Assembly: GCA_014691105.1 (NCBI GenBank)
Contig: GCA_014691105.1_4891.1
From: a phage
DNA: 52,976 bases
Direction: 5' to 3' (one strand)
Positions within the stretch are counted from its first letter, which is position 1. The number at the start of each line of letters is the position of its first letter. Under the pieces are notes generated by a model that did no database searches, was not told the origin of the DNA, and saw only the letters and a list, made by a program, of their open reading frames with translations. The position numbers were made by a program, and so were the translations under genes. Shown here piece after piece: positions 2,703-32,774 of the stretch.

Positions 2703-2941
2703 GCCATAACTTTTGCCAGTCTTACAACGTCTTCATGGTCCCGCTCGCCATCAGAAAATTCGCTGGCGATGATACCCATAATTGACGCCAGATTCATGTT
2801 GATGATGTAGGCGTGTTGGCGCACTTCATCAATTCCTGAATCTATCACCAGTTCCGCAAATTCTTGTGAACCTTCATCCCATTCAGCCCAATACTGCTCA
2901 GCATAAAAGTCCAGTTCTTTTTTCATCTCAATATCAGTCAT
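2684..2941 (-). CDS. hypothetical acidic protein (85 aa)
   Basis: ORF track. Confidence 0.5.
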   Translation of the reverse strand: MTDIEMKKELDFYAEQYWAEWDEGSQEFAELVIDSGIDEVRQHAYIINMNLASIMGIIASEFSDGERDHEDVVRLAKVMAWVDAL

Positions 2942-2946
2942 TTTGA

Positions 2947-3147
2947 TTACTCCTCAGAACCTGAAAATTTGTCGTCAATGGCTTCAACAATATAATCAAG
3001 AGTTGAAGTGTGAGAACTATCAGAAAAAGTGCCCATCTTCTCTAACTCAATCATCATATCCCGCAAGGCCATCGCCTGGTCTTTGGTCAGTTTGATTTTA
3101 AGCATGTTTCTCTCCTGTTGATTGTGAATAATTTCAATTGATGGCAC
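2947..3147 (-). CDS. small early protein, paralogue family member 2
   Basis: Internal Met (about 3105) gives MLKIKLTKDQAMALRDMMIELEKMG..., similar N-terminal pattern to the MKDLKLT proteins. Confidence 0.45.
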   Translation of the reverse strand: MPSIEIIHNQQERNMLKIKLTKDQAMALRDMMIELEKMGTFSDSSHTSTLDYIVEAIDDKFSGSEE

Positions 3148-3169
3148 TACTTGAGTGCCATCTCAAAAA

Positions 3170-3796
3170 TTACTCTTCAGTTTCTTGTGCTTCAGTTTCA
3201 GGTTTTTTGCCAGTTACTGATTTGCCATCAGTCACTTTACCAGATTTTACATCATTACGGTAATAGGACATATAGGATTGGACAACACGTTTTGCCCTAA
3301 TATCATCCGCTTCCATCCCACAGGCTTTCATGGCATCGGCCAGCGCCAATTTGGAATCTTCTTTGTCCATCAAATTGTAGTCCTTGAATACTGCATAGCA
3401 GGTATCTTTGGTTGACGGACCGGATGAAGTTTTGCGGGTGCCACCAGCAGATGCTCGTGTTGTCGCAACTTTGACCTCTTCAACTTCCAGTTGGTTAAGC
3501 TCATCAAATAGGGCTTTCACCAGCACTTCTTTTGAGTCTTTGACACTTACAGAACTTTCATCATTAAGGGACTTAATCATCTTAATGATCTGGTTATTGG
3601 CAAAGTACTGCAGGCTATCCATCTGCACTACAATAGTCCCAAGACTTTCAGTAGTCAGACCAGATTTTACAGACTCGACAGAAAAAGCGGAAGTCAGGTA
3701 AACATAGTTGATAGTAGTCATTGATGTATCCTCGTCAATAGAATTTTGGTAAGCGCCAATCCCTGGCAAGTAAGTCCAAACATGACAACTTGACAA
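3170..3796 (-). CDS. hypothetical protein (up to 208 aa)
   Basis: ORF track; probable start at an internal Met (MTTINYVY...). Confidence 0.5.
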   Translation of the reverse strand: MSSCHVWTYLPGIGAYQNSIDEDTSMTTINYVYLTSAFSVESVKSGLTTESLGTIVVQMDSLQYFANNQIIKMIKSLNDESSVSVKDSKEVLVKALFDELNQLEVEEVKVATTRASAGGTRKTSSGPSTKDTCYAVFKDYNLMDKEDSKLALADAMKACGMEADDIRAKRVVQSYMSYYRNDVKSGKVTDGKSVTGKKPETEAQETEE

Positions 3797-3814
3797 AAGT
3801 TGTCATGATTGAAA

Positions 3815-3994
3815 TCACTTCAATTTGTTAAGTATTTTGGTCAATAGCTCAACTCTTTCTTCCTGGTCAGTAGGGTCAAAGTTTTCAATTGACTCCTTCC
3901 AGTCCTCCAGCAGTTCCTTTTCATTAAATATTGAAATGTCAAGAAATTCAACCAATAACTCAACTTCTTTTTTAGTCAATTTCAAATCTTTCAT
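3815..3994 (-). CDS. small early protein, paralogue family member 3 (59 aa, unlisted)
   Basis: Hand translation: MKDLKLTKKEVELLVEFLDISIFNEKELLEDWKESIENFDPTDQEERVELLTKILNKLK, preceded by a GAGGG-type RBS; the overlapping plus ORF 3825..4025 is low-complexity and probably spurious. Confidence 0.5.
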   Translation of the reverse strand: MKDLKLTKKEVELLVEFLDISIFNEKELLEDWKESIENFDPTDQEERVELLTKILNKLK

Positions 3995-4008
3995 CTTGTA
4001 TGACCCTC

Positions 4009-4212
4009 TTACCCTTGATATTTGACTACTTGCGACTGGATGAAATCAACACAATCTTCCACGTCCATTGATTCAAAATCTGGAACTGGTCCATTATTAA
4101 TGTTGACACACCATAGCCCTTCATTACAATCGTACCAAAGCGTATAGTTGTCTTTCATAATAGTTACTCCTGCTATTAGTTTCCAGGCGTGGCTACTGCT
4201 TCCAATAGCCAC
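4009..4212 (-). CDS. hypothetical small Cys-containing protein
   Basis: ORF track; likely start at internal Met (MKDNYTLWYDCNEG...) preceded by AGGAG. Confidence 0.4.
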   Translation of the reverse strand: MAIGSSSHAWKLIAGVTIMKDNYTLWYDCNEGLWCVNINNGPVPDFESMDVEDCVDFIQSQVVKYQG

Positions 4213-4518
4213 TAGTTGAAACTATTACCAGCGTTACTATCAACAAGAAACATGTTACCAAATTGTTAAAGAGCGGTCTGGTACTATTCGACCAGGTAAA
4301 GTTATTATTTGCGCATCTTGACGACACGCGCCAGACAAGACGCTTGACACATTCATCATTCGTCTTGATGTAATAATTATAGGCCAGTCAATCAATGTTG
4401 TACATAAAAGAATTGCAAGTTTATGCAAGTTTTTAGAAATGATAATCACTTGCGATTGAGAGTGGTTCTCATATGCAATTGATATAGTTTCACATGTAAT
4501 TACTCACTTCAAAATGGT

Positions 4519-4575
4519 CGGCAGGGGTTATAATCACATAGGGGTGCCACTTAAAGGAGCCGGCGAAATTATTTA
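4519..4575. repeat. copy 1 of a ~55-bp intergenic repeat (GGGGTTATAAT..AGGGGTGCCAC..AGGAGCCGGCGAAATT)
   Basis: Aligns at roughly 70% identity with 4693..4750 when read by eye; contains a perfect TATAAT. Confidence 0.6.
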
Positions 4576-4692
4576 TAAAAATATAATTTCAATCTGAATT
4601 ATAGACGCTTTGTGCTATAACGGCTGAAGTAGTTCATACGGTAATTGTATCAATCGCAATAGTTACCAGAGTAATCATTTCAATTGAAATAG

Positions 4693-4750
4693 GTGCGGCG
4701 GGGGGTAATTTCGCAGGGGTGCTACCTGCCAGGAGCCAGCGGAATTTTTT
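4693..4750. repeat. copy 2 of the intergenic repeat (GGGGGTAATTT..AGGGGTGCTAC..AGGAGCCAGCGGAATT)
   Basis: See copy 1; both lie in the divergent control region between the leftward and rightward early genes. Confidence 0.6.
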
Positions 4751-4967
4751 ATTTTTTCTCTATTTTCTCCTTATCAGGACCAATCATCATCAGAGTAACA
4801 CGGCAGGAGCTAACCTTTTGCTTATCACAATAATAAGTGAAGCCCCTCTAAAATTTTTTTATATTTTTCGGAAATTGTGTAGACACTCACTAAAAAGTGG
4901 TGTACTTTCTCTCCTCCACGCGCTATCATTAATGTGAATCATCAAACGGCCTCACGGTCTCCTACTT

Positions 4968-5456
4968 GTGGGTAACATTATGAAAATTGTTCAATTAGAG
5001 CCATATCCGCCTCAATTGGCTATCGTTTGCAGCGAAAAAGAGCACGAAGAGCTCCAAAAACTGATGGATTTGCCTGATTTTGGCAACTGGAATGACCGGG
5101 AAACACGTAATGCATCTACCTTTACATTCTCTCGCGTTAACTATCCGTACCTGTTAATCGTCGTCGAACTGTACCACCCGGACGACCTGAAGTACAACAC
5201 CATTTCCCACGAGGGCATTCACGTAATGTCGTCGCTGATGAACTATGTAGGGCTTAAATACGACCCAGAAAACGATGAATGGTACGCATATCAGCATGAT
5301 TTCATCGTAAATGCCATTTGTAAGGCCCATGACGAGTATATAGAGCGCCAAAAAACGCCAAAAACTAAGCCAAAAATAGAAACAGGTAACCATCCTGCAA
5401 TACTGCCACAAGACGTAATGAACTCGCTTTTGACTGACACTACTGGGGACTTTTAG
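4968..5456 (+). CDS. hypothetical protein with HExxH motif (possible zinc metallopeptidase-like)
   Basis: HEGIH motif in ISHEGIHVMSSL; first gene of the rightward block; start could be GTG 4968 or ATG 4980. Confidence 0.45.
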   Translation: MGNIMKIVQLEPYPPQLAIVCSEKEHEELQKLMDLPDFGNWNDRETRNASTFTFSRVNYPYLLIVVELYHPDDLKYNTISHEGIHVMSSLMNYVGLKYDPENDEWYAYQHDFIVNAICKAHDEYIERQKTPKTKPKIETGNHPAILPQDVMNSLLTDTTGDF

Positions 5457-6131
5457 GTGATTAATATAATCTTTGCAATGGGCCAAAATGGGGAATTCGG
5501 GTTGTCTCCGGAGTTTATGAAGCATCAGGTTAACTCGTGCAAGACCATGGAAGAGGTCCGTGCGCTTCCTAAATCGGGTCTGCCCTGGAAATGTCCGTCA
5601 GACATGCTCTTTTTCAGGACTATGACTAATTCAGTTGCGACAGAACCAGGCTATAATGCATATCAGCAACTACGTGGACAGTTCCCACAAGACCAGTTGC
5701 GAAACATGATAGCAGATGTAACGGTAAAAATGGTAGGACATAGTGTATTGTTAGCCGGTCGTAACACGTATATGACTATGAGTCTGCCTATGTCAGCCCA
5801 CAGAATACTGCTGCCGGTATCTCGCCAGATTATGGCTTCAGAAGGCTACAATAATTTGGGTGAGATGGCAGCAGACCTTGAATCCAGAGGTACTGACGTC
5901 TGGATTGTAGGCGGTGCCGAATTGATACTTTCGGCCCTTGAAGAACACGCAAAAGACTTACTCCGTATCGACAACATGTTTATCAGTACGATCAAGCAAT
6001 CAGGTCCAAGTGATATTTTAATGGATTGTAGCAAATTAATGATGTACATTGATAGCGACTTTACATATAATGATGAATATGTTGATAACAAACAAGTTCT
6101 GATACAACGGTACAGGAGTTTACATAAATGA
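5457..6131 (+). CDS. dihydrofolate reductase-like protein
   Basis: DHFR-like blocks IIFAMGQNGEFG, GLPWKCPSDMLFFRTMT, VLLAGRNTYMTMSLPMSAHRILLPVSR and VWIVGGAELI, with an insertion after the first strand. Confidence 0.55.
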   Translation: MINIIFAMGQNGEFGLSPEFMKHQVNSCKTMEEVRALPKSGLPWKCPSDMLFFRTMTNSVATEPGYNAYQQLRGQFPQDQLRNMIADVTVKMVGHSVLLAGRNTYMTMSLPMSAHRILLPVSRQIMASEGYNNLGEMAADLESRGTDVWIVGGAELILSALEEHAKDLLRIDNMFISTIKQSGPSDILMDCSKLMMYIDSDFTYNDEYVDNKQVLIQRYRSLHK

Positions 6132-6634
6132 ACATCATAATCGAGGGTCCGGATAATGCTGGTAAAACTACAGTTATTGAGTTCCTTAAATCTCATACTG
6201 GCCGCAGTGTTACTCATAATACTGTTGACAAAGATCCCGAATCGGTCATGGCTAAACAGACCAAAGAAAACGCGTTGGAAGGCGATTGTATTTATGACCG
6301 TAGCGCTGTTATATCTGAGTATATCTATTGTCTGGTTCTTCAACGTACGCCTGTCATCAATATTAATGTATCACATGTAGCAGATATGTGCGACAACGCC
6401 ATCGTTATCTTTTGTATGCCGCCTGTTGAAAAGGTACTGGCAACTACAAAAGACGAGATGCCTGGTGTTGTGGAAAATCTTGAGGCGTTATACAATCAGT
6501 ATGACAACCTCATTGACGAACTGGTTATGATGAGTAAGCAGTTCTTCATTTACGACTGGACTGTTGAAGAAGATGGTCCTGAAGCAGTTCTAGAATATAT
6601 CAACGAACGTATTAATAAGGAGTGGAACAAATGA
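6128..6634 (+). CDS. P-loop nucleoside/deoxynucleoside monophosphate kinase (thymidylate-kinase-like)
   Basis: P-loop GPDNAGKTT followed by a DRS motif (YDRSAVISEY); ATGA overlap with the DHFR stop. Confidence 0.5.
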   Translation: MNIIIEGPDNAGKTTVIEFLKSHTGRSVTHNTVDKDPESVMAKQTKENALEGDCIYDRSAVISEYIYCLVLQRTPVININVSHVADMCDNAIVIFCMPPVEKVLATTKDEMPGVVENLEALYNQYDNLIDELVMMSKQFFIYDWTVEEDGPEAVLEYINERINKEWNK

Positions 6635-7332
6635 GCCCAGTATACAATACCTCAGTCACGCTGTCCGCAACCGTAGGGGGCGTCAACAAGACTGTTACTG
6701 TGGGTTCAACTAACCCTAACCTATCAGGCGAAGACCTGTTGCGCATGGCTAAACGTGCTCTTGAAGATAACGAAGTGACTGGTACTGAAGGTGTCAGCAT
6801 TGAGATTAACATCGAGGGTTATGAAGAAAGCATCAGCATTGCTACTTCTGACGATGAAGCTTGTGAACAGCTAAAGTTCAACGATGAGCTGGAATATCGT
6901 ACCGGTGAGATGTTCAGCAGTGCGCTAAACTGGTACTTGTACAAGGCTTCAAACTACGCTGGCGCTCCTATGTCAGACCGTATGTTAGCTGACATGTCTG
7001 CACGTGAAATTGCTAAAGGCTGGGCGCATGTACAGATGCTGCAGGAGCGTATCTGCAAGCTGAAAAGCTGCAATAAAGACGCGTCTGAGCTTATTACTGC
7101 CTATAAGCGACAGATTAACGACCTGCAGCAACTGATGGGCAAACGCGCTGAAGAATATGAGGCTGAGATTCGCAGTCTTAACGGCACAGCTGTTGCTAAC
7201 AACCGTGCTTTCAGCGAAGAGCGTAAAGCGCTTATCGCCCAGCGTGACGCTGAAAAACGTCGTGCAGACGACCTGGCAGACCGTCTCAACTTTATCCGTA
7301 AGCATATGGATGCTATGGAAGGGGTAATCTGA
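6622..7332 (+). CDS. hypothetical protein (coiled-coil C-terminus)
   Basis: ORF track; start may be the Met at 6631. Confidence 0.5.
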   Translation: MEQMSPVYNTSVTLSATVGGVNKTVTVGSTNPNLSGEDLLRMAKRALEDNEVTGTEGVSIEINIEGYEESISIATSDDEACEQLKFNDELEYRTGEMFSSALNWYLYKASNYAGAPMSDRMLADMSAREIAKGWAHVQMLQERICKLKSCNKDASELITAYKRQINDLQQLMGKRAEEYEAEIRSLNGTAVANNRAFSEERKALIAQRDAEKRRADDLADRLNFIRKHMDAMEGVI

Positions 7333-14448: not shown

Positions 14449-14899
14449 CGGTGCATGCATTATTGGTGAAGAGTCTGGTACAGTTGATGGTACGCCGTAT
14501 GTTTATCTGCGTCCTGGTGATGCTTATGACTTCGGACCTCCTAGAACCAGACAAGGCTCTGACGGCTTTGAGTACGTCAGCAAGCCAATGATGACAGCTG
14601 TACGTATTACAGCTGTCGGTAAGAATGCTGCTGAGCTAATGCGTAAGCTACACATAGCGCTGGGTAGTTCACCAGCTAAGCAGTTTAACCGTTTACGGCA
14701 TTATGCAATAACCAAAATATCGAAGATTGATAATGTCGGTGGTGCTATTGGTGCAGGCTATGCTCAGAAGTCAATGCTGACTGTTGATATTAGCTATGTG
14801 CATAAAGTTAAAATTGAGCAACCGTACATCTACAAGGTTGACATCACTTGTATGGATGACAACGGTAACAAAGCGACTGGTACAGTAGAGGAACCGTAA
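14372..14899 (+). CDS. hypothetical structural protein
   Basis: Track ORF 14342..14899; first ATG at 14372 (MATTTLQQF...). Confidence 0.35.
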   Translation: MATTTLQQFSIKDLRELVQKLLTLPDGACIIGEESGTVDGTPYVYLRPGDAYDFGPPRTRQGSDGFEYVSKPMMTAVRITAVGKNAAELMRKLHIALGSSPAKQFNRLRHYAITKISKIDNVGGAIGAGYAQKSMLTVDISYVHKVKIEQPYIYKVDITCMDDNGNKATGTVEEP

Positions 14900-15522
14900 T
14901 GGCAACTGAAGTAGACCCGGAACTGCAAGCGCAGCTGGATAAGCTAACCACTGCTGTCCAGCTCATTCATGACTTCGGTATGTCAGGCGACCCAAACATC
15001 CCTAACCCGGAAGGTGGTGTCATACGCACACTCGAAGGCATTAACGCTGCAATCAACGAAGCTATACCAAACTTTGAAAACGCTAACGAAGCTGCTATCC
15101 AGGCGCGTGCTGCTCGTGACGCGGCTATTGCAGCCAAAGAAGCTGCAGAAACGGCAGCTGAACAGGCCACAGTAGCTTCGACGTCAGCAATCTATGAGTA
15201 CGGTAACGTTGCAAGTGCAGCTACAGTGACTATACCAGCTGCGTCTAAAACAATTGTCAGCCTTACTCTTAACCAGCCAAACACCGTAATTAATATCGGT
15301 GGTGTGTCTGACCCGTCTACTGTTGCGCGTCAGATTACTATTGCTATTAAGCAAGGCACTGGTTCTAACAAGGTGACTTCTTGGGATCCAAGAATAAAAT
15401 GGGCCAACAACAGGAAGCCCGTTCTGTCATTCCTTGTGGGTTACACAGATGTTGTTACGTTGCTGACCTTTGACTCAGGCGCAACTTGGATGGGTTTCTT
15501 TAACGGTGGATGGATTAAATAA
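14899..15522 (+). CDS. hypothetical structural protein (Ala-rich coiled-coil N-terminus)
   Basis: ORF track; ATGA coupling on both sides. Confidence 0.4.
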   Translation: MATEVDPELQAQLDKLTTAVQLIHDFGMSGDPNIPNPEGGVIRTLEGINAAINEAIPNFENANEAAIQARAARDAAIAAKEAAETAAEQATVASTSAIYEYGNVASAATVTIPAASKTIVSLTLNQPNTVINIGGVSDPSTVARQITIAIKQGTGSNKVTSWDPRIKWANNRKPVLSFLVGYTDVVTLLTFDSGATWMGFFNGGWIK

Positions 15523-18479
15523 TGCACACGATGTTGCTTAAAGACGGATCAGACCATCGAGCTAATGTCGAAAGCCTTATCGAAGGTCACCACCATTTTC
15601 TTGAGCGCAATACTGGCAGAACTGACGACGCTACGCGTCAGCACTATATCTTCAATCCAGAAGGAGTAGTGTCGAACAACCGCCATTTTATTGCACACAC
15701 CATGATGGAGTATCAACCTAACGGTGATGCTCCGTCTGAAAGTCAGTCGCTGCTAATACTCGGCGAAATTCACGCGTACCTTGCTACTAAGGAACAGCGG
15801 TACCTTGACAAAGCAATTGAGTACTTCAATGCTTACGTCAAGTACTATTACGAGGGGGACCCAATCCCTGATACTCCTCGTCGCTGGATCGCTAACTGGC
15901 TTTGTAATGGCAAAGAGCCTGTGCTAGCCAGCTTCCCAATCAACCCTGATTCACCAACACAAGGCGGCTATAAAAATGTGCCAGTTAAATTTGTTAACGG
16001 CAAAGCACAAATCCCTCATGGTTCTCCTTTCTGGGGCGAGTACCTGGATGTTGCTACTTGGGCCCACAGGGGACACATGGCTTGGCCTGCTATTAATGGT
16101 GGTGTCCGTGTTATTAAAAATAAAGTTGACTGGGACGATATTTACAACAATTATCGCATCACTACCATGCCAGCTGACCCGTGGAATCAGTTAGCCTGGA
16201 TTGACTGGCCGAGGTATCTGGGTGAACCAAGCTACACTGTGGACTGGTCAGCGGCTGAACCTCCTGTACATCTCATCGAGTATATTGTTGCATGGACCAA
16301 TAACAAGATTGGTGTTCTACCTGGCAAAAACGATGAGCTATGGGGAGGCGAGATTCTTGAGACTGGACTGCCTGACTCTCGCAGAGGTGAGATTCAGCTC
16401 CGTGACCACACTGTTAACGGTGTGTATCTGCTTAACTATGCCGTTAAGCTTCCTGTTGAACACGGTGGTTATTTGCTTAAGCGAAATGAAGTATGGCACA
16501 ACAGACCGGTAAACGTTCCATTGTACGGCGAGCTTCAACGCGGTAATGCTGCTGATGCTGAGTTGTGGTTCTGTGACTGCTGCTATATGCTGTGGCGAAT
16601 TACTAACGAGCAAAAGTATTACAACGCTTGGCAAGCTGTCCTGTTTACACTGGAGGAGTATATTGACATCGATAAACAAGACCAGTTCTTCCGACAAGAC
16701 ACTCACGCGTCGTCTCCGTTTACTGATGGCATCTCTTATGATTGGTCTTATCCTGAACTGGCACAAGCTATATATTCACGTGATGAAAATGGTTATATAG
16801 TTCTACGTCAGAACGAAAAAGCTCAATCATCTCTGGAGCAGCAGGCTGTATGGTTTAAGTGTAAGCCAACAGCTAAGATACGTACAGAAGTTGGGGGCAA
16901 AGATGATGCTGGTCAGAATATCAGTGTCAAGGTGGAAATGTACATGAACCGTGAAAAGGTTGACGTCGAGCAAAACATCTATCGTTTTGTCACACAGCTA
17001 CCTGCTCTTGGTGCTTCACCTGCTAACTACGACATTCCATTAAGCGATTTTGTCGCAGGTACTAAGCCAGATGGTTCTGAGTATATCTTAGCTGATATTC
17101 GTTCATCCACTGACTATGGCAATGCCACTACTGCAGTGTCTTACCGTACTGACATACTTGACAACAGACGTGGCAACACTGTCCGTATGACAATACCGGA
17201 TAGTTCGTCAGGTGCCATTATAGGCTTTTGGCTACTGGAATCTTCCCAGGCACCTTTAAACTCGCTGACGTATACTTCTACAGGTCCGTTGTGCATCAAA
17301 GTAACTGACGCGCAAGGCTGGAGTTGGGTACGTGATTTACCTGCCGCACCAGGATGGGTAACTCAGCAGATTCGCACCTGGGAGTTCAGGCTGGCGTCAT
17401 ACCAGGAAAACACAGGTACACCACCAGCTAGCCCACAATTCGGCGAGATTAAGCAGTTCTCGTTTGTACTGCCTGACGGCGTTAATACGTCGACAAGTAT
17501 TAGCTGGTACTGTGTGAATGATGTTCCGCCTCGCTATAACTGGCCAATTGGTTATACGATTAAGTATCGTCTTACTTTCTCGGCTGATAACCCGTACACA
17601 GCTAGGCTTGGCGACTGTACTGTGCTGGACTATGAGAATGATAACCTTGCTTACACGCCAGGTGTTATTCCGTTCTCCAACATTTATAACCCTGATTCTA
17701 AGCAGTTCGATGGTTGGCACGGTATACCTTACCCTGGCTATCAGTATCCGTTTGTCTTTACGCATGACGATACTGCAGCAGGTACAATCAGGCTGAACAA
17801 CATGGTTAACTTTTTGTACGATTCTCAGCAATGGTACTATAAGAAGTTTGGTCAGCTAGGTCCTGGTGCATCTGCTTTTATCTGGAACCGTTGGGATAAC
17901 TTTAAATACGGTGTACCTGATACGTTTACCATGTATCACTGGGGTAATGGTAGTGCATGGTCAGGTTACCAGCCTCGTGCTTATTTCTCCGCAGCACGTG
18001 GATGGTATGAGCTAGTAAACCGTGGTAAGCCAGTTCCGAGTAAGCTTATTGCTTATGTGGATAACTGGTCAAAATGGTTGCTTGACTTCATGGAAAGGTC
18101 AGGAGGTGTGTCGCCTTCTAACTTCCCACAAGAAGGTGTTGCTCTGCCAGTCCCTTCAGACTTCACAGGTCACATGTGCGGACTATGGCTTGCTGGTGCA
18201 GCTATGTCAGCCCTTTGTGGGTCAACAGTATCAGGACTGGATAAGCTGATGGACATGCTTGTCAATGAGCTGGAAGACCATTACGACATAACTGGTATTC
18301 CGGGGCATGTAATGGATGGTGGTTGGTCACCAGCGTTACGCCTTGAAACTGGTTCAGGACCTGAAAGCAACGCCATGTACTATGGTTTTTACTCTGGCGA
18401 AATATTACGAGGGTTGGGCTTATACCTGCTGTACAAAAACAAAGGGGCTAAAGCAGATATTTATGATTTAGGCCCGTAA
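15522..18479 (+). CDS. large virion-associated protein (985 aa), possible carbohydrate-active tailspike-like protein
   Basis: Long Trp/Tyr-rich ORF inside the structural operon; function guessed from composition only. Confidence 0.4.
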   Translation: MHTMLLKDGSDHRANVESLIEGHHHFLERNTGRTDDATRQHYIFNPEGVVSNNRHFIAHTMMEYQPNGDAPSESQSLLILGEIHAYLATKEQRYLDKAIEYFNAYVKYYYEGDPIPDTPRRWIANWLCNGKEPVLASFPINPDSPTQGGYKNVPVKFVNGKAQIPHGSPFWGEYLDVATWAHRGHMAWPAINGGVRVIKNKVDWDDIYNNYRITTMPADPWNQLAWIDWPRYLGEPSYTVDWSAAEPPVHLIEYIVAWTNNKIGVLPGKNDELWGGEILETGLPDSRRGEIQLRDHTVNGVYLLNYAVKLPVEHGGYLLKRNEVWHNRPVNVPLYGELQRGNAADAELWFCDCCYMLWRITNEQKYYNAWQAVLFTLEEYIDIDKQDQFFRQDTHASSPFTDGISYDWSYPELAQAIYSRDENGYIVLRQNEKAQSSLEQQAVWFKCKPTAKIRTEVGGKDDAGQNISVKVEMYMNREKVDVEQNIYRFVTQLPALGASPANYDIPLSDFVAGTKPDGSEYILADIRSSTDYGNATTAVSYRTDILDNRRGNTVRMTIPDSSSGAIIGFWLLESSQAPLNSLTYTSTGPLCIKVTDAQGWSWVRDLPAAPGWVTQQIRTWEFRLASYQENTGTPPASPQFGEIKQFSFVLPDGVNTSTSISWYCVNDVPPRYNWPIGYTIKYRLTFSADNPYTARLGDCTVLDYENDNLAYTPGVIPFSNIYNPDSKQFDGWHGIPYPGYQYPFVFTHDDTAAGTIRLNNMVNFLYDSQQWYYKKFGQLGPGASAFIWNRWDNFKYGVPDTFTMYHWGNGSAWSGYQPRAYFSAARGWYELVNRGKPVPSKLIAYVDNWSKWLLDFMERSGGVSPSNFPQEGVALPVPSDFTGHMCGLWLAGAAMSALCGSTVSGLDKLMDMLVNELEDHYDITGIPGHVMDGGWSPALRLETGSGPESNAMYYGFYSGEILRGLGLYLLYKNKGAKADIYDLGP

Positions 18480-18485
18480 CCACTA

Positions 18486-18514
18486 TTTACTTAACCGAGG
18501 CGCCAGCCTATAAT
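18486..18514 (+). promoter_or_regulatory. sigma70-like promoter TTTACT-N17-TATAAT with flanking palindrome
   Basis: TTTACT 18486-18491, TATAAT 18509-18514; the -10 lies between inverted repeats GCGCCAGC and GCTGGCGC. Confidence 0.5.
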
Positions 18515-29674: not shown

Positions 29675-30320
29675 ATATCATAAACTACTTATTCAACAGT
29701 ACGCTGATAAGCCAAAAGCTGTTGCAACTATTAATGGCTTCGATGATGCAATTCAGGGTATCTGGGACGGCGCCCAACAAGTTGTTGATAGCCTTAATAT
29801 CGATAAAGCTTTCGGTAAAGGTCTTGATAATGTTGCAGCCCGCGTCGGCGCATCTCGTGTTCTTAAAAAAGGCGTAGACCGTAAGTTCTTCGGCTTTACC
29901 AACAAAGTACCAGACGTGCTTGGTTTCGGCGGTTCGTCTGGTAATAAAGGTGGCCCGTTCTATCGCTACGGTGCATCAGTATGGGACCCGGTAATTCTTG
30001 ACGACATTGACCTGCGTACTTACATCAAGATGAAAATCTGGAAGAACATGCAAGACGGTACTATGCCGTATCTAATTGACTTCCTGATTGAATTCTTCGG
30101 AATGAATAACTTCGTTATAACTGACAACGAAGATATGACAATGACTCTGGAGATATACAGTACTCTGACACCACTTAAGCAAGTGCTGATTCAGAACTAC
30201 GATATACTTCCGCGCCCCACAGGGGTAAAGATTGAACTTAACACGAGCGTTGACGTTACGGATAGTCTGTATCGTTATGCTACTGTAAACTTACCAGCAC
30301 AGGTGAATGTATATGGCTGA
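29661..30320 (+). CDS. putative baseplate/tail-fibre attachment protein (gpI / Mu gp48-like)
   Basis: 219 aa after the J-like gene, overlapping starts. Confidence 0.45.
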   Translation: MLMAEYHKLLIQQYADKPKAVATINGFDDAIQGIWDGAQQVVDSLNIDKAFGKGLDNVAARVGASRVLKKGVDRKFFGFTNKVPDVLGFGGSSGNKGGPFYRYGASVWDPVILDDIDLRTYIKMKIWKNMQDGTMPYLIDFLIEFFGMNNFVITDNEDMTMTLEIYSTLTPLKQVLIQNYDILPRPTGVKIELNTSVDVTDSLYRYATVNLPAQVNVYG

Positions 30321-31647
30321 TGTACAAACAAGACCCGATAACGACATCTTCGCCAGCTCCGCGGGTACTGGTGAACTGCTGCCGTTCGGTGACCTTGCTC
30401 GTGGCTGGGGTGCAACCCTTGGCTACTCTGAAGGTATTCCTCCGATGGAGTGGTTTAACTTTATCGGTAACCGTACTGACAAAGGTATCCACTATATCCT
30501 TCAGCAGGGTGTTGATGTATGGGTAGAAACTGAGACCTACCCGGTTGGTGCACTGGTTAAAGTTAACGCCGACAATATGTTGTACCGTTGTCTGGTGCAG
30601 AACATTAATATGCCACCGTCTGCTAACCCTACACAGTGGCGCCCTGTACTCGACCTGACTGCGGCAACTGCGGCAGCACGACAGGTTGGTAAAGCTTCTG
30701 GTAACGTAATCCAGGTCGGTGCATTTGGCTTAGGTGGCAACGCTGAGGTAGTTACTAATGCTAACAGCATTGTAAACGACGGTATCTACCAGCTTCCAGC
30801 GTCAGGTACGGGCGGACCTACTAACGGCGTTGAGACTGAGATTCTGCATATCAACTGGGATGAGAAAAACGCTTCACAGTGGGGACGCACCAAGGGTAAG
30901 CGCGTAATAACCATGCGTGAGAAGGTTAACAATACCTGGGGCGGATGGTCATACTCTTACGGGCCTGATAATAAACCTACGGCATCTGAGCTGGGCATTA
31001 ACCAGGACTTCATCCCTATGGATGGTTCTGACTCAATCCGCGGCAACTTAGGTACTGTAGGCTGGTTACATATTGCACGTACTACTTCCGACTTGCTACG
31101 TGCTGCTAACTCCGCCGGTGTAGGTACTGTTGAGTATTCTGGTAACATCGCAGGCGGTACTGCTGTTCAGGAGTTGCTGACTTCAGTTTCTGTAGCGGCT
31201 AACAGTAATGTTGTCACTGCTGCTCGCTGGGGATCTGTGCCTATGTCGCACATCCAGCACATCCTTGTGGCTGGCGGTGCTACACAGATTAACATGGCAG
31301 TATGTCGCCCTGGTGGTATTGCCGACCGCCGTACAGTAGCTTTGCAGGTGGATGGCCTTAACAGCCGAGTAACTACCACAAATAGCTTTATTTTATGTGA
31401 GAATGGTGTTAGAGTATATTCACCTAACAACCCGCAGCCTATCGATACTTCAGCCGGTAACGTTCGGGGTATTCGACTCGGCGCTCGTATTGCTGCTGGT
31501 GTATCCGAGTCAACGTTCTACCCTGGGCATGTAATGACTGGCTGGCGCTTCGGCAATAAGAAAGAGCTGCGCGGTGGTACATACTGGTCAGCGCCGTTAC
31601 AGTATTATATCAACGGCACTTGGATTAACGTAAGCAACGTATCGTAA
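30307..31647 (+). CDS. tail fibre protein
   Basis: 446-aa ORF followed by two tail-fibre-assembly chaperone genes; likely start at ATG 30313. Confidence 0.55.
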   Translation: MYMADVQTRPDNDIFASSAGTGELLPFGDLARGWGATLGYSEGIPPMEWFNFIGNRTDKGIHYILQQGVDVWVETETYPVGALVKVNADNMLYRCLVQNINMPPSANPTQWRPVLDLTAATAAARQVGKASGNVIQVGAFGLGGNAEVVTNANSIVNDGIYQLPASGTGGPTNGVETEILHINWDEKNASQWGRTKGKRVITMREKVNNTWGGWSYSYGPDNKPTASELGINQDFIPMDGSDSIRGNLGTVGWLHIARTTSDLLRAANSAGVGTVEYSGNIAGGTAVQELLTSVSVAANSNVVTAARWGSVPMSHIQHILVAGGATQINMAVCRPGGIADRRTVALQVDGLNSRVTTTNSFILCENGVRVYSPNNPQPIDTSAGNVRGIRLGARIAAGVSESTFYPGHVMTGWRFGNKKELRGGTYWSAPLQYYINGTWINVSNVS

Positions 31648-31656
31648 AGGTTTATT

Positions 31657-32199
31657 ATGACTAAGCATAAGGTGTTCCGTAACTTTACCATGTACCATCC
31701 TGAGGTAACAGAAGAGAACGAGAACATTGTAAATGCTGGTGCAATCTTCCTCAAGGATGAGGAAGGTCGCGACTGGTACAATCTAGCAAAAGAGTTCGCT
31801 GTCAAATACGAAGGCGCAACGTTCTTGCAGGTAGATAAGAACGGAGTTGTAATTGCCGCACATACCGACCCGACTATGTTCCATCCTGTGGGCTGTGATA
31901 TGGTTGTAACGTACGACCCGCCTTTCAACATCTTCGAGACTGTTGGTGAATGGCTGTTCGATGGTAAAGAGTTTACGCTTAACGCACCAATGATGAAGGA
32001 GATTGCTCGTGAGCGTAAAGAACAAGCTCTGTCCATCGCTTCGACCAAGGTCAGTGTTTTACGCGACACAGTTGATAGTGGCAATGCTACCGATGAAGAA
32101 AAAGAGCTATTTGCTAAATGGCGTGATTACAGGATTGCTGTCAATCGTCTTGACATTAACCTTGGTTCCGCTATGGTTGTTCCACCTATGCCGGAGTAA
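31657..32199 (+). CDS. tail fibre assembly protein (Tfa/gpG-like), paralogue 1
   Basis: C-terminal WRDYRIAVNRLDINLGSAMVVPPMP resembles the Tfa tail W..YR..L.RVD.S.AP.I.WP..P; paralogous to the next gene. Confidence 0.6.
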   Translation: MTKHKVFRNFTMYHPEVTEENENIVNAGAIFLKDEEGRDWYNLAKEFAVKYEGATFLQVDKNGVVIAAHTDPTMFHPVGCDMVVTYDPPFNIFETVGEWLFDGKEFTLNAPMMKEIARERKEQALSIASTKVSVLRDTVDSGNATDEEKELFAKWRDYRIAVNRLDINLGSAMVVPPMPE

Positions 32200-32202
32200 A
32201 CC

Positions 32203-32706
32203 ATGCAACTGTCATTTTTCAACTTTACAGAATACAACCCACAAAGGACGGCGGAGACACTTCCGCTGATTAAGCAAGGCGTTGTATTCATCAAGGATAA
32301 CAACGGTAATGACTGGCGCAAGCTGGCTAAAGAGCTGGCTAAGAATAAAGAGCTGGTTCATTACATTGTTGTGGACAAGTACAATGCTGTTGCCGCGTAT
32401 GCTAACGATCCTACGCTACTGTTTCCTGTTAATTGCGATTTGCATATTGTTGAGTCTGCCCCTGTTGCTAAGTTTGCGGATTGCTATTACGAATGGTCGT
32501 ACGTTAATGGCAAGTTTGTTAAGCACTCTGAACTGCAGAAGGTGATTGCAGAAGAACGCCTGCAGGAAGAACAGGCTTGGGTTGAAGGACAACTCGACAC
32601 TGAAGAAGATGAGGAACGTATTATCGCTCTCCATAAATTCCGTGCCGATTTGTTGCTGCTTGTTATGTCAGATGCGCCGCATATCGACTGGCCTGTACGA
32701 CCGTAA
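32203..32706 (+). CDS. tail fibre assembly protein (Tfa/gpG-like), paralogue 2
   Basis: N-terminus NFTEYNP...FIKDNNGNDWRKLAKELA parallels paralogue 1; C-terminal HKFRADLLLLVMSDAPHIDWPVRP. Confidence 0.6.
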   Translation: MQLSFFNFTEYNPQRTAETLPLIKQGVVFIKDNNGNDWRKLAKELAKNKELVHYIVVDKYNAVAAYANDPTLLFPVNCDLHIVESAPVAKFADCYYEWSYVNGKFVKHSELQKVIAEERLQEEQAWVEGQLDTEEDEERIIALHKFRADLLLLVMSDAPHIDWPVRP

Positions 32707-32712
32707 CTAATT

Positions 32713-32754
32713 GCTACCAGCAAGCTTGTGCAGTTGCTGGTAGTGTTTCTTTTA
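32713..32754 (+). terminator. rho-independent terminator
   Basis: Stem GCTACCAGCAA / TTGCTGGTAG followed by TGTTTCTTTT. Confidence 0.6.
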
Positions 32755-32774
32755 CGCTTGAGTCGTGCTATAAT
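32746..32774 (+). promoter_or_regulatory. promoter-like element with TATAAT -10 upstream of the lysis cassette
   Basis: TATAAT at 32769-32774; weak -35 TTTCTT at 17-bp spacing. Confidence 0.4.

What the first reader, a model, noticed from the sequence alone, without database searches (positions are those of the whole stretch)
31657..32706. Tandem paralogous tail-fibre assembly chaperone genes after a single tail fibre gene
Both products share a conserved N-terminal block and the Tfa-type C-terminal motif (W..YR...L..D....P.IDWP). Two chaperones for one visible fibre suggests the second serves another receptor-binding protein or is a remnant of a swapped fibre module.
Basis: partly seen in the sequence, partly recalled or inferred. 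Interest (0 to 1): 0.4.

Follow-up and report, generated by a model that had tools for sequence, protein, structure and literature searches.

The report
Two tail-fibre chaperone genes in tandem
This Salmonella/E. coli phage (a Rosemountvirus) has two related Mu/P2-type tail-fibre assembly chaperone genes after its fibre gene; the arrangement is already annotated and published, and comparison shows the first chaperone is swapped together with the fibre tip while the second is an older, conserved add-on of unresolved role.

Summary
ORFs 31657-32199 (Tfa1, 180 aa) and 32203-32706 (Tfa2, 167 aa) are homologous (38% identity over 121 aa, E 7e-25). Both match phrog_136 over their full length. Both model as a Mu-Tfa-like N-domain plus a helical hairpin.

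It is not new. The window is a near-complete Rosemountvirus genome, 98.9% identical to phage BP63. RefSeq already annotates both genes, and Gambino et al. 2020 discussed the same pair in phage S144.

- **"Relic" reading:** contradicted. The pair is intact in three lineages and both genes are under purifying selection (dN/dS about 0.10).
- **"Recent duplicate" reading:** not supported. Tfa1 groups with the single Tfa of syntenic sister phages. Tfa2 groups with phi92-like Tfas and carries a lineage-specific 11-residue deletion.
- **"Another receptor-binding protein" reading:** no support found. There is no second Mu-S-like tip or third Tfa in the genome, and the other fibre-like genes diverge only at background rate.
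- **What is added here:** the exchangeable cassette is the fibre tip plus the Tfa1 N-domain. Tfa2 lies outside it.

My best guess is that Tfa2 is an auxiliary, less tip-specific co-chaperone of the same fibre. This is unproven. Interest is low to moderate.

The parts
30307..31647 (+). Tail fibre gene (446 aa from the first ATG; the RefSeq-equivalent start is 30313)
   Evidence: phrog_30316, E=0. Annotated 'tail fiber protein' gp44 in BP63.
31441..31644 (+). Fibre tip domain: the last 68 aa, after the invariant YSPNNPQP motif. It is Mu gpS-like and hypervariable between lineages.
   Evidence: A profile of six fibres hits Mu gpS 5YVQ_A residues 437-502, E 2.6e-6. The tip is 77% identical to the phi92 gp147 tip. 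It is only 36-39% identical to the tips of the L008 and ZCSE2 lineages, while the shaft is 79-87% identical.
31657..32199 (+). Tfa1, the tip-cognate tail fibre assembly chaperone (N-domain about aa 1-110, helical C-domain about aa 110-180)
   Evidence: Caudo_TAP 2.7e-13. phrog_136 2.7e-43. Mu gpU 5YVQ_B E 4e-11 by sequence. AF2 pLDDT 93, with Foldseek TM 0.80 to 5YVQ_B. Groups with the single Tfa of sister phages.
32203..32706 (+). Tfa2, the second Tfa-family protein. Its C-domain hairpin is shortened by an 11-residue deletion and it keeps the canonical AP.IDWP.RP end.
   Evidence: phrog_136 2.4e-31. AF2 pLDDT 90, with Foldseek TM 0.79 to 5YVQ_B. The deletion is visible in alignments A2 and A8. 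Only two clusters of this type exist among 1.84 billion representative proteins.
31430..32020 (.). Exchangeable cassette: fibre tip plus the Tfa1 N-domain
   Evidence: In the sliding DNA identity of window vs L008, identity falls from about 80% to 20-45% here, recovers within the Tfa1 C-domain, and Tfa2 stays at 65-74%.
32193..32196 (+). GGAG Shine-Dalgarno sequence for Tfa2. It lies inside the last codons of Tfa1. The Tfa1 stop is 32197-32199 and the Tfa2 ATG is 32203.
   Evidence: Read from the sequence. Coupled translation is an inference.
32713..32744 (+). Terminator-like hairpin followed by a U-tract, closing the fibre operon after Tfa2
   Evidence: Free energy -18.9 kcal/mol, z -2.5. Conserved with compensatory changes in L008 and ZCSE2. 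In the single-Tfa phage KE25 an analogous hairpin directly follows the only Tfa.
32766..32774 (+). TGCTATAAT extended -10 element of the lysis-cassette promoter
   Evidence: Invariant in all four aligned lineages.
14899..18479 (+). Other fibre-like structural genes (207-aa 'tail fiber protein' and 985-aa tail protein). They are the only candidates for a different client of Tfa2. No link to Tfa2 was found.
   Evidence: phrog_27998 and phrog_2871. No similarity to the fibre tip. They are 77% and 82% identical to their ZCSE2 orthologues, which is the background level.

Best explanation
Both genes encode functional Mu-gpU / P2-gpG-type tail fibre assembly chaperones. They are expressed from the late fibre operon: fibre, Tfa1, Tfa2, terminator.

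**Tfa1** is the tip-cognate chaperone. Its N-terminal beta/alpha domain is homologous to the Mu Tfa domain that binds the distal tip of the fibre trimer. It is exchanged by recombination together with the last ~68 residues of the fibre. Its helical C-domain stays with the resident genome and provides the right-hand homology for that exchange.

**Tfa2** is not a recent duplicate. It is a second Tfa lineage, closest to phi92-like Tfas. It entered the operon before Rosemountvirus and Loughboroughvirus split, lost 11 residues from its helical hairpin, and has been kept under purifying selection.

**Inferred role of Tfa2 (not shown).** It acts on the same fibre as an auxiliary, less tip-specific co-chaperone. 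It may share the three Tfa sites of the 3:3 fibre:Tfa complex with Tfa1, or act at a separate step of trimerisation. It then leaves, so it is absent from the virion.

**Shown:** homology, fold, operon structure, conservation, selection, cassette boundaries.
**Inferred:** binding to the fibre, the co-chaperone role, translational coupling.
For: **Family and fold**
- Both match phrog_136 over their full length.
- Tfa1 matches Mu gpU at E 4e-11.
- Both AF2 models (pLDDT 93 and 90) have N-domains matching the Mu Tfa chain 5YVQ_B at TM 0.80 and 0.79, probability 1.00.
- The fibre tip matches the Mu gpS tip in 5YVQ_A.
- Domain roles come from PMC9608196, which summarises North et al. 2019. The 3:3 hexamer comes from PMC11990801.

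**Both genes are functional**
- dN/dS is 0.110 for Tfa1 and 0.104 for Tfa2 across six Rosemountvirus genomes.
- Intact orthologues are present in ZCSE2 and in the L008 lineage.

**Tfa1 is tip-cognate**
- Window vs L008: shaft 87%, tip 39%, Tfa1 N-domain 28%, Tfa1 C-domain 57%, Tfa2 N-domain 74%.
- The DNA identity trough runs from 31430 to 32020.
- The window tip is 77% identical to the phi92 gp147 tip.
- The window Tfa1 N-domain is 42% identical to the phi92 gp148 N-domain, against 27% for the other Tfa1 orthologues. Its C-domain is only 20% identical to that of gp148.

**Tfa2 is tied to the fibre operon rather than to another protein**
- It lies between Tfa1 and the conserved terminator and has its own SD overlapping the Tfa1 end.
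- There is no other Mu-S-like tip or Tfa in the window.
- Its divergence (69% vs L008, 45% vs ZCSE2) exceeds that of nearly all backbone proteins (80-93% vs L008 apart from one lysis protein at 67%; 73-96% vs ZCSE2 apart from the Ig-repeat protein at 54%), including the other fibre-like proteins.

**Origin**
- NJ tree: Tfa1 plus the single Tfas 74%; Tfa2 plus phi92-like Tfas 93%.
- The 11-residue deletion is unique to the Tfa2 clade.
- The clade is confined to this phage group among 1.84 billion representative proteins.
Against: - No tool here tests binding, so the client of Tfa2 is inferred.
- The Tfa2 N-domain stays 74% identical between two lineages whose tips are only 39% identical. This fits a tip-independent role, but equally fits a client other than the tip.
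- Syntenic sister phages (KE25/KE26, fHy-Eco03, Erwinia SOI901) manage with one Tfa. KE25 has a tip 68% identical to ZCSE2's. So a second chaperone is not intrinsically required for this kind of tip.
- The S144 authors found neither chaperone in the virion and left the question open (PMC7432712).
- The trees rest on about 110-210 aligned columns at about 30% identity. The 74% node is weak.
Confidence: 0.5

Rival explanations
1. Tfa2 is the chaperone of a different receptor-binding or fibre protein encoded elsewhere, for example the 207-aa fibre-like protein at 14899-15522 or the 985-aa tail protein at 15522-18479.
For: - Other fibre-like genes do exist.
- The Tfa2 N-domain does not track the fibre tip between the window and L008: 74% against 39%.
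- Tfa2 lies outside the tip/Tfa1 cassette.
- In the more distant phage PY100, the site after the first Tfa holds a second fibre with its own Tfa.
Against: - There is no second Mu-S-like tip in any frame of the window.
- The 207-aa protein shows no similarity to the fibre tip.
- The candidate clients are 77-82% identical between genera while Tfa2 is 45% identical, so they do not co-vary.
- Tfa2 is embedded in the fibre operon, 15 kb away from those genes.
- PY100 ORF82 is not similar to Tfa2.
Confidence: 0.15
2. Tfa2, or Tfa1 and Tfa2 alternately, stays on the fibre tip as a cap, as reported for Mu. It would contribute to or alter receptor recognition, giving mixed fibre populations and the Salmonella/E. 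coli polyvalence of these phages.
For: - Mu Tfa remains in the virion and contributes to receptor recognition (PMC9608196, citing North 2019).
- Both N-domains have the Mu Tfa fold.
- Isolates of this genus come from both Salmonella and E. coli.
- Tfa2 evolves faster than the backbone.
- The single Tfa of fHy-Eco03 is flagged as virion-associated by LC-MS/MS in its record.
Against: - Neither chaperone was detected in the S144 virion proteome (PMC7432712).
- The fHy-Eco03 MS list also includes lysozyme and DNA polymerase, so it is not specific for structural proteins.
- There is no direct evidence here.
Confidence: 0.12
3. Tfa2 is a redundant leftover of an old fibre-module exchange, with no distinct function. 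It would be tolerated because it is small.
For: - Tfa2 has a different phylogenetic affinity from Tfa1: it groups with phi92-like Tfas.
- Tips and Tfa N-domains are demonstrably exchanged with phi92-like phages.
- Sister phages function with one Tfa.
- Tfa2 has a deletion in the conserved C-domain and scores below the Pfam threshold.
Against: - Tfa2 is intact in all 45 Rosemountvirus records with a full-length match, and in two further lineages that have diverged to 45% identity.
- dN/dS is 0.10, equal to Tfa1.
- It has a confident two-domain fold and a good SD.
- A useless gene would not survive this much divergence in a 53-kb lytic phage.
Confidence: 0.08

Closest known systems
Phage Mu gpS-gpU (fibre and Tfa; PDB 5YVQ) and P2 gpH-gpG
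   Same: - Same protein family (Caudo_TAP/PF02413, phrog_136).
- Same two-domain Tfa architecture.
- Same Mu-S-like fibre tip.
- The Tfa gene lies immediately downstream of the fibre gene.

   Different: - Mu and P2 have one Tfa per fibre tip.
- Mu's second Tfa (U') belongs to a second, inverted tip (S') in the invertible G segment.
- Here there are two Tfas on the same strand, one tip, no invertase and no flanking inverted repeats.
Loughboroughvirus S144 ORF31-ORF32-ORF33 (Gambino et al. 2020, PMC7432712) and ZCSE2 gp22-24
   Same: - Orthologous arrangement of fibre plus two chaperones.
- The authors already describe 'two very similar putative chaperones', both hitting Mu GpU by HHpred.
- They also note that the fibre and chaperones are the main variable structural genes between the two genera.

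   Different: - The fibre tip and both Tfa sequences differ: tip about 36%, Tfa1 44%, Tfa2 45% identical.
- The paper treats the two as near-equivalent. Here they resolve into two separate Tfa lineages with different C-domains.
phi92 gp147-gp148 (Justusliebigvirus fibre and Tfa)
   Same: - The window's fibre tip is 77% identical to the gp147 tip.
- The Tfa1 N-domain is 42% identical to the gp148 N-domain.
- Tfa2 as a whole clusters with phi92-like Tfas and shares their W-A/V...AP.I.WP.RP C-terminal pattern.
   Different: - phi92 has a single Tfa after gp147.
- gp148 lacks the 11-residue deletion.
- The fibre shafts are unrelated.
T4 gp57A + gp38 (two chaperones for the gp37 long tail fibre)
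   Same: Functional analogy only: two trans-acting chaperones needed for one fibre, neither retained in the virion. This analogy was raised by the S144 authors.
   Different: - There is no homology.
- gp57A and gp38 are unrelated to each other and to Caudo_TAP.
- Here the two are homologues sharing the fibre-binding fold.
Single-Tfa sister phages (fHy-Eco03, KE25/KE26, vB_SE1_KM, Erwinia SOI901)
   Same: - Same baseplate, fibre, Tfa, lysis synteny.
- Same terminator and TGCTATAAT junction.
- The fibre shaft is about 65% identical.
- Their Tfa groups with Tfa1.

   Different: They have no Tfa2. The terminator follows the only Tfa directly.

Membership tests
Caudo_TAP / PF02413 tail fibre assembly proteins (Mu gpU, P2 gpG, lambda Tfa) | Sequence match to the family model above its curated threshold | tested here: met
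   Tfa1 scores 50.7 bits against a cut-off of 22.1, E 2.7e-13. It also matches phrog_136 (2.7e-43) and Mu gpU (E 4e-11).
Caudo_TAP / PF02413 tail fibre assembly proteins (Mu gpU, P2 gpG, lambda Tfa) | The same sequence criterion applied to Tfa2 | tested here: inconclusive
   Tfa2 scores 17.6 bits, below the 22.1 cut-off, and E 0.23 to Mu gpU by sequence. On the other hand, it matches phrog_136 over its full length at 2.4e-31. Its orthologues P0002 and P0124 carry precomputed PF02413 hits. It is 38% identical to Tfa1.
Caudo_TAP / PF02413 tail fibre assembly proteins (Mu gpU, P2 gpG, lambda Tfa) | Two-domain architecture: an N-terminal beta/alpha fibre-binding domain as in 5YVQ chain B, plus a C-terminal alpha-helical domain | tested here: met
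   AF2 pLDDT is 93.1 for Tfa1 and 90.4 for Tfa2. Each has an N-domain plus two long helices. Foldseek to 5YVQ_B gives TM 0.80 and 0.79, E about 3e-7. The Tfa2 hairpin is shorter: helices of 26 and 15 residues against 31 and 18.
Caudo_TAP / PF02413 tail fibre assembly proteins (Mu gpU, P2 gpG, lambda Tfa) | Encoded directly downstream of a fibre gene whose C-terminal tip is the client | tested here: met
   The order is fibre 30307-31647, Tfa1 31657-32199, Tfa2 32203-32706, then the terminator. The tip is homologous to the Mu gpS tip. Tfa2 is one gene removed from the fibre.
Caudo_TAP / PF02413 tail fibre assembly proteins (Mu gpU, P2 gpG, lambda Tfa) | Physically binds the fibre C-terminus and is required for soluble trimeric fibre | not testable with these tools
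   This needs co-expression, pull-down or a multimer prediction. The structure tool here accepts single chains only.
Invertible alternative fibre modules (Mu G segment S-U / S'-U', P1 C segment) | A second tip plus Tfa in inverted orientation, flanked by inverted repeats, with an adjacent serine invertase | tested here: not met
   Both Tfas are on the + strand. There is no second tip in six frames. Only short, imperfect inverted repeats are present. No invertase appears in the BP63 annotation.
Recent tandem gene duplication (in-paralogues) | The two copies are each other's closest relatives | tested here: not met
   In the NJ tree, Tfa1 groups with the single Tfas of sister phages (74%). Tfa2 groups with phi92-like Tfas (93%). 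The C-domains are 20-30% identical.
T4-type dual chaperone system (gp57A + gp38) | Homology to gp57A or gp38 | tested here: not met
   No Pfam, PHROG or PDB hit to gp57A or gp38 families for either protein. The resemblance is functional only.

The most novel reading that the evidence does not exclude
Tfa2 is a tip-independent 'generalist' co-chaperone. It either co-assembles with Tfa1 into mixed caps on the trimeric fibre tip or acts at a separate folding step. By buffering the folding of newly acquired tips, it would allow the tip plus Tfa1-N-domain cassette to be swapped freely, for example with phi92-like phages. This would be a built-in evolvability device underlying the polyvalence of Rosemount/Loughborough phages.
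Probability: 0.15. Interest if true: 0.5.

Novelty: already known. Interest (0 to 1): 0.25.

Why it matters
Tail-fibre tips and their chaperones decide host range, and they are the parts people swap when engineering phages. If the second chaperone is needed, or helps foreign tips to fold, then fibre engineering in Rosemountvirus and Loughboroughvirus phages must carry it along. Both genera are widely proposed for Salmonella and E. coli biocontrol. It would also be a natural example of a two-component Tfa system.

As it stands, the feature is an annotated, published arrangement. The incremental value here is threefold:
- the exchangeable unit is the tip plus the Tfa1 N-domain;
- Tfa2 lies outside that unit;
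- Tfa2 is a separate, conserved Tfa lineage, not a fresh duplicate or a relic.

Tried and rejected
- **Word-indexed homologue search with Tfa2 alone** found only 2 clusters. IMG/VR added only known isolates. So no new architectures came from metagenomes beyond L008.
- **First NJ attempts failed.** The Biopython bootstrap timed out. A Kimura-distance version produced NaNs and meaningless splits. It was redone with Poisson distances.
- **Sequence search of the fibre alone against PDB** gave nothing. A six-sequence profile was needed to recover the Mu gpS tip.
- **The '3 tfa' annotation in phage LPSEYT** is a 127-bp direct duplication of the Tfa2 start. This is most likely an assembly-overlap artefact, not a third gene.
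- **The 'gp38 RBP' paper on Rosemountvirus SD286** (PMC12946066) concerns an unrelated 123-aa protein, not these genes.
- **The second Tfa of PY100 (ORF82)** was tested as a possible Tfa2 ancestor. There is no similarity.
- **NCBIfam** has no model for any of these proteins.
- **The long proteins P0148 and P0149** in the representative search are spurious repeat hits: beta-propeller/PQQ in P0149, and only sub-threshold DUF3849/RHS fragments in P0148.
- **Charge complementarity between the two C-domains** was considered as a hint of heteromerisation. Net charges are -1 and -9, so this was not informative.
- **The consensus terminator scan** missed the hairpin after Tfa2. Its loop limit is 3-8 nt, so a longer apparent loop is the likely reason. 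Folding recovered the hairpin.

Full report
**What the window is.** The 3.1 kb around the finding is 98.9% identical to Salmonella phage BP63, with 45 near-full-length matches among Salmonella and E. coli phages of the genus Rosemountvirus. The window is essentially a complete, collinear ~53-kb genome of that genus. RefSeq already annotates the two ORFs as 'tail fiber assembly protein (x2)'.

**Check of the observation.**
- ORFs 31657-32199 (Tfa1, 180 aa) and 32203-32706 (Tfa2, 167 aa) lie on the + strand, 3 nt apart, directly after the 446-aa fibre gene 30307-31647.
- They are 38% identical over 121 residues, E 7e-25, and both match phrog_136 end to end.
- The similarity is confined to the N-terminal ~120 residues. 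The C-domains are only 20-30% identical.
Tfa1 carries W..YR...LD and Tfa2 carries P.IDWP.
- Only Tfa1 passes the Pfam Caudo_TAP threshold.
- 'One fibre' is correct for Mu-S-type tips: a six-frame search finds one tip and two Tfas only. Even so, fibre-like genes exist at 14899-15522 and 15522-18479.

**What the proteins are.**
- Tfa1 matches Mu gpU (PDB 5YVQ chain B) by sequence at E 4e-11. Tfa2 matches only weakly.
- AlphaFold2 models are confident, pLDDT 93.1 and 90.4. Both show an N-terminal beta/alpha domain followed by a helical hairpin.
- Both N-domains superpose on Mu Tfa at TM 0.80 and 0.79, with no other significant PDB hit.
- A profile of six related fibres matches the distal tip of Mu gpS (residues 437-502 of 5YVQ_A), E 2.6e-6.
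- From the literature, the Tfa N-domain binds the fibre tip and the conserved helical C-domain mediates trimerisation (PMC9608196, summarising North et al. 2019). The Mu complex is a 3:3 hexamer (PMC11990801).

**Already published.** Gambino et al. 2020 (PMC7432712) describe the orthologous ORF31-33 of Loughboroughvirus S144. They report one fibre and 'two very similar putative chaperones', both hitting Mu GpU. Neither was detected in the virion proteome. They note the T4 gp57A/gp38 analogy and leave the reason for two chaperones open.

**Comparative anatomy.**
- The pair is present in Rosemountvirus, in Loughboroughvirus (ZCSE2 gp23/gp24), and in a third metagenomic lineage, L008.
- Syntenic sister phages have a single Tfa between the fibre and the lysis genes. 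These are KE25/KE26, vB_SE1_KM (by Tfa match only; its region was not fetched), fHy-Eco03 and Erwinia SOI901.
- A hairpin terminator (32713-32744, -18.9 kcal/mol) and an invariant TGCTATAAT follow Tfa2 in the two-Tfa lineages. In KE25 they follow the only Tfa. Tfa2 is therefore an insertion inside the fibre operon.
- Tfa2 has its own GGAG overlapping the end of Tfa1.

**Selection.** Across six Rosemountvirus genomes, dN/dS is 0.110 for Tfa1 and 0.104 for Tfa2, against 0.053 for the fibre. Tfa2 is not decaying.

**Origin.**
- In a bootstrapped NJ tree the three Tfa1 orthologues form a clade (97%) that joins the single Tfas of the sister phages (74%).
- The three Tfa2 orthologues form a clade (100%) that joins phi92-like (Stephanstirmvirinae) Tfas (93%).
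- Tfa2 shares the phi92-type C-terminal pattern (W-A/V..., AP.I.WP.RP). It uniquely lacks 11 residues at the tip of the helical hairpin.
- Among 1.84 billion representative proteins, only two clusters belong to this type.
- The pair is therefore not a recent tandem duplication.

**Which chaperone goes with the tip.**

| Window vs L008 | Identity |
|---|---|
| Fibre shaft | 87% |
| Fibre tip | 39% |
| Tfa1 N-domain | 28% |
| Tfa1 C-domain | 57% |
| Tfa2 N-domain | 74% |
| Tfa2 C-domain | 61% |

- Sliding DNA identity falls from about 80% to 20-45% exactly from 31430 (the invariant YSPNNPQP) to about 32020. It recovers inside the Tfa1 C-domain and stays at 65-74% through Tfa2.
- The window's tip is 77% identical to the tip of phi92 gp147.
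- Its Tfa1 N-domain is 42% identical to that of phi92 gp148, against 27% for the other Tfa1 orthologues. Its C-domain is only 20% identical to gp148's.
- Hence the exchangeable unit is the tip plus the Tfa1 N-domain. Tfa1 is a chimera and Tfa2 lies outside the cassette.
- Tfa2 nevertheless diverges faster than almost all backbone proteins. It is 69% identical vs L008, where backbone proteins are 80-93% apart from one lysis protein at 67%. It is 45% identical vs ZCSE2, where other structural proteins are 73-96% apart from the Ig-repeat protein at 54%.
- The other fibre-like proteins are 77-82% identical between genera.

**Interpretation.**
- High confidence: both are functional Tfa-family chaperones, and Tfa1 is the tip-cognate one.
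- Moderate confidence (about 0.5): Tfa2 is an auxiliary, less tip-specific co-chaperone of the same fibre.
- Arguments for that role are its operon position, its Mu-Tfa tip-binding fold, the absence of any other Mu-S-type tip, and the lack of co-variation with other fibre-like proteins.
- Arguments against are that its N-domain is conserved across different tips, and that sister phages, including KE25 with a ZCSE2-like tip (68% identical), need only one Tfa.
- Rivals are a different client protein, a virion-retained cap that modulates host range, or a redundant relic. The relic reading is the least likely given the selection data.

**Verdict.** This is an ordinary, already annotated and published arrangement whose mechanistic rationale is still open. 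The analysis refines it but does not reveal a new kind of system.

Noticed in passing
window 31462-31641 (fibre residues 386-445) vs L017:3806-3985 (phi92 gp147 residues 267-326): The Rosemountvirus fibre tip is 77% identical to the tip of phi92 gp147, a fibre of an unrelated 148-kb myovirus. The fibre shafts are unrelated. This is a clear cross-family exchange of a ~60-residue tip.
   Followed up: partly
L002 (Salmonella phage LPSEYT MH181876), locus 3704-4334: A third 'tail fiber assembly protein' is annotated because the first 127 bp of Tfa2 are directly duplicated. The match is 127 bp longer than the query, which is the size of a SPAdes k=127 end overlap. It is probably an assembly artefact.
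   Followed up: partly
L003 (Salmonella phage rivia MT074438), locus 1928-2339: A 412-bp repeat_region is annotated inside the fibre gene, and the fibre CDS is N-terminally truncated in that record. It is probably a terminal-repeat or assembly-join artefact placed within the gene.
   Followed up: no
L006 + L005 (Salmonella phage KE26 PP856725, record ends): The record is linearised inside the fibre gene. Joining the ends gives a frameshifted fibre C-terminus compared with the identical phage KE25.
   Followed up: partly
L020 (Yersinia phage PY100 AM076770), locus 2928-7002: A more distant relative with the same wedge/DUF2612/fibre synteny carries fibre1, Tfa, a small ORF, fibre2 (640 aa) and a second, unrelated short Tfa at the position where Tfa2 sits here. 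So this site accepts extra fibre modules.
   Followed up: partly
window 14899-21326: Between the neck and sheath genes lie three large structural genes: a 207-aa coiled-coil plus knob 'tail fiber protein', a 985-aa tail protein with no Pfam or PDB match, and a 709-aa protein with eight Big_2 Ig-like repeats. The Ig-rich protein is only 54% identical between genera. After the Tfas and the tip, it is the most variable structural protein.
   Followed up: partly
phage-database hits H21 (PP583539 'Listeria phage 220426122051') and H70/H71 ('Campylobacter phage A150/C3'): A 97%-identical Rosemountvirus is deposited as a Listeria phage. phi92-like 146-kb genomes are deposited as Campylobacter phages. 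The host labels look implausible and suggest contaminant or mislabelled records.
   Followed up: no
L015 (Escherichia phage fHy-Eco03 MW602648), locus 3001-3534: The record notes say the single Tfa is 'virion associated' by LC-MS/MS. The same flag is given to lysozyme and DNA polymerase, so that proteome is not specific for structural proteins.
   Followed up: no
window 32328-32363: A short imperfect tandem 18-nt repeat (TAAAGAGCTGGCTAAGAA / TAAAGAGCTGGTTCATTA) lies inside Tfa2 and encodes ...KELAKNKELVH.... It is probably a chance or slippage remnant.
   Followed up: no
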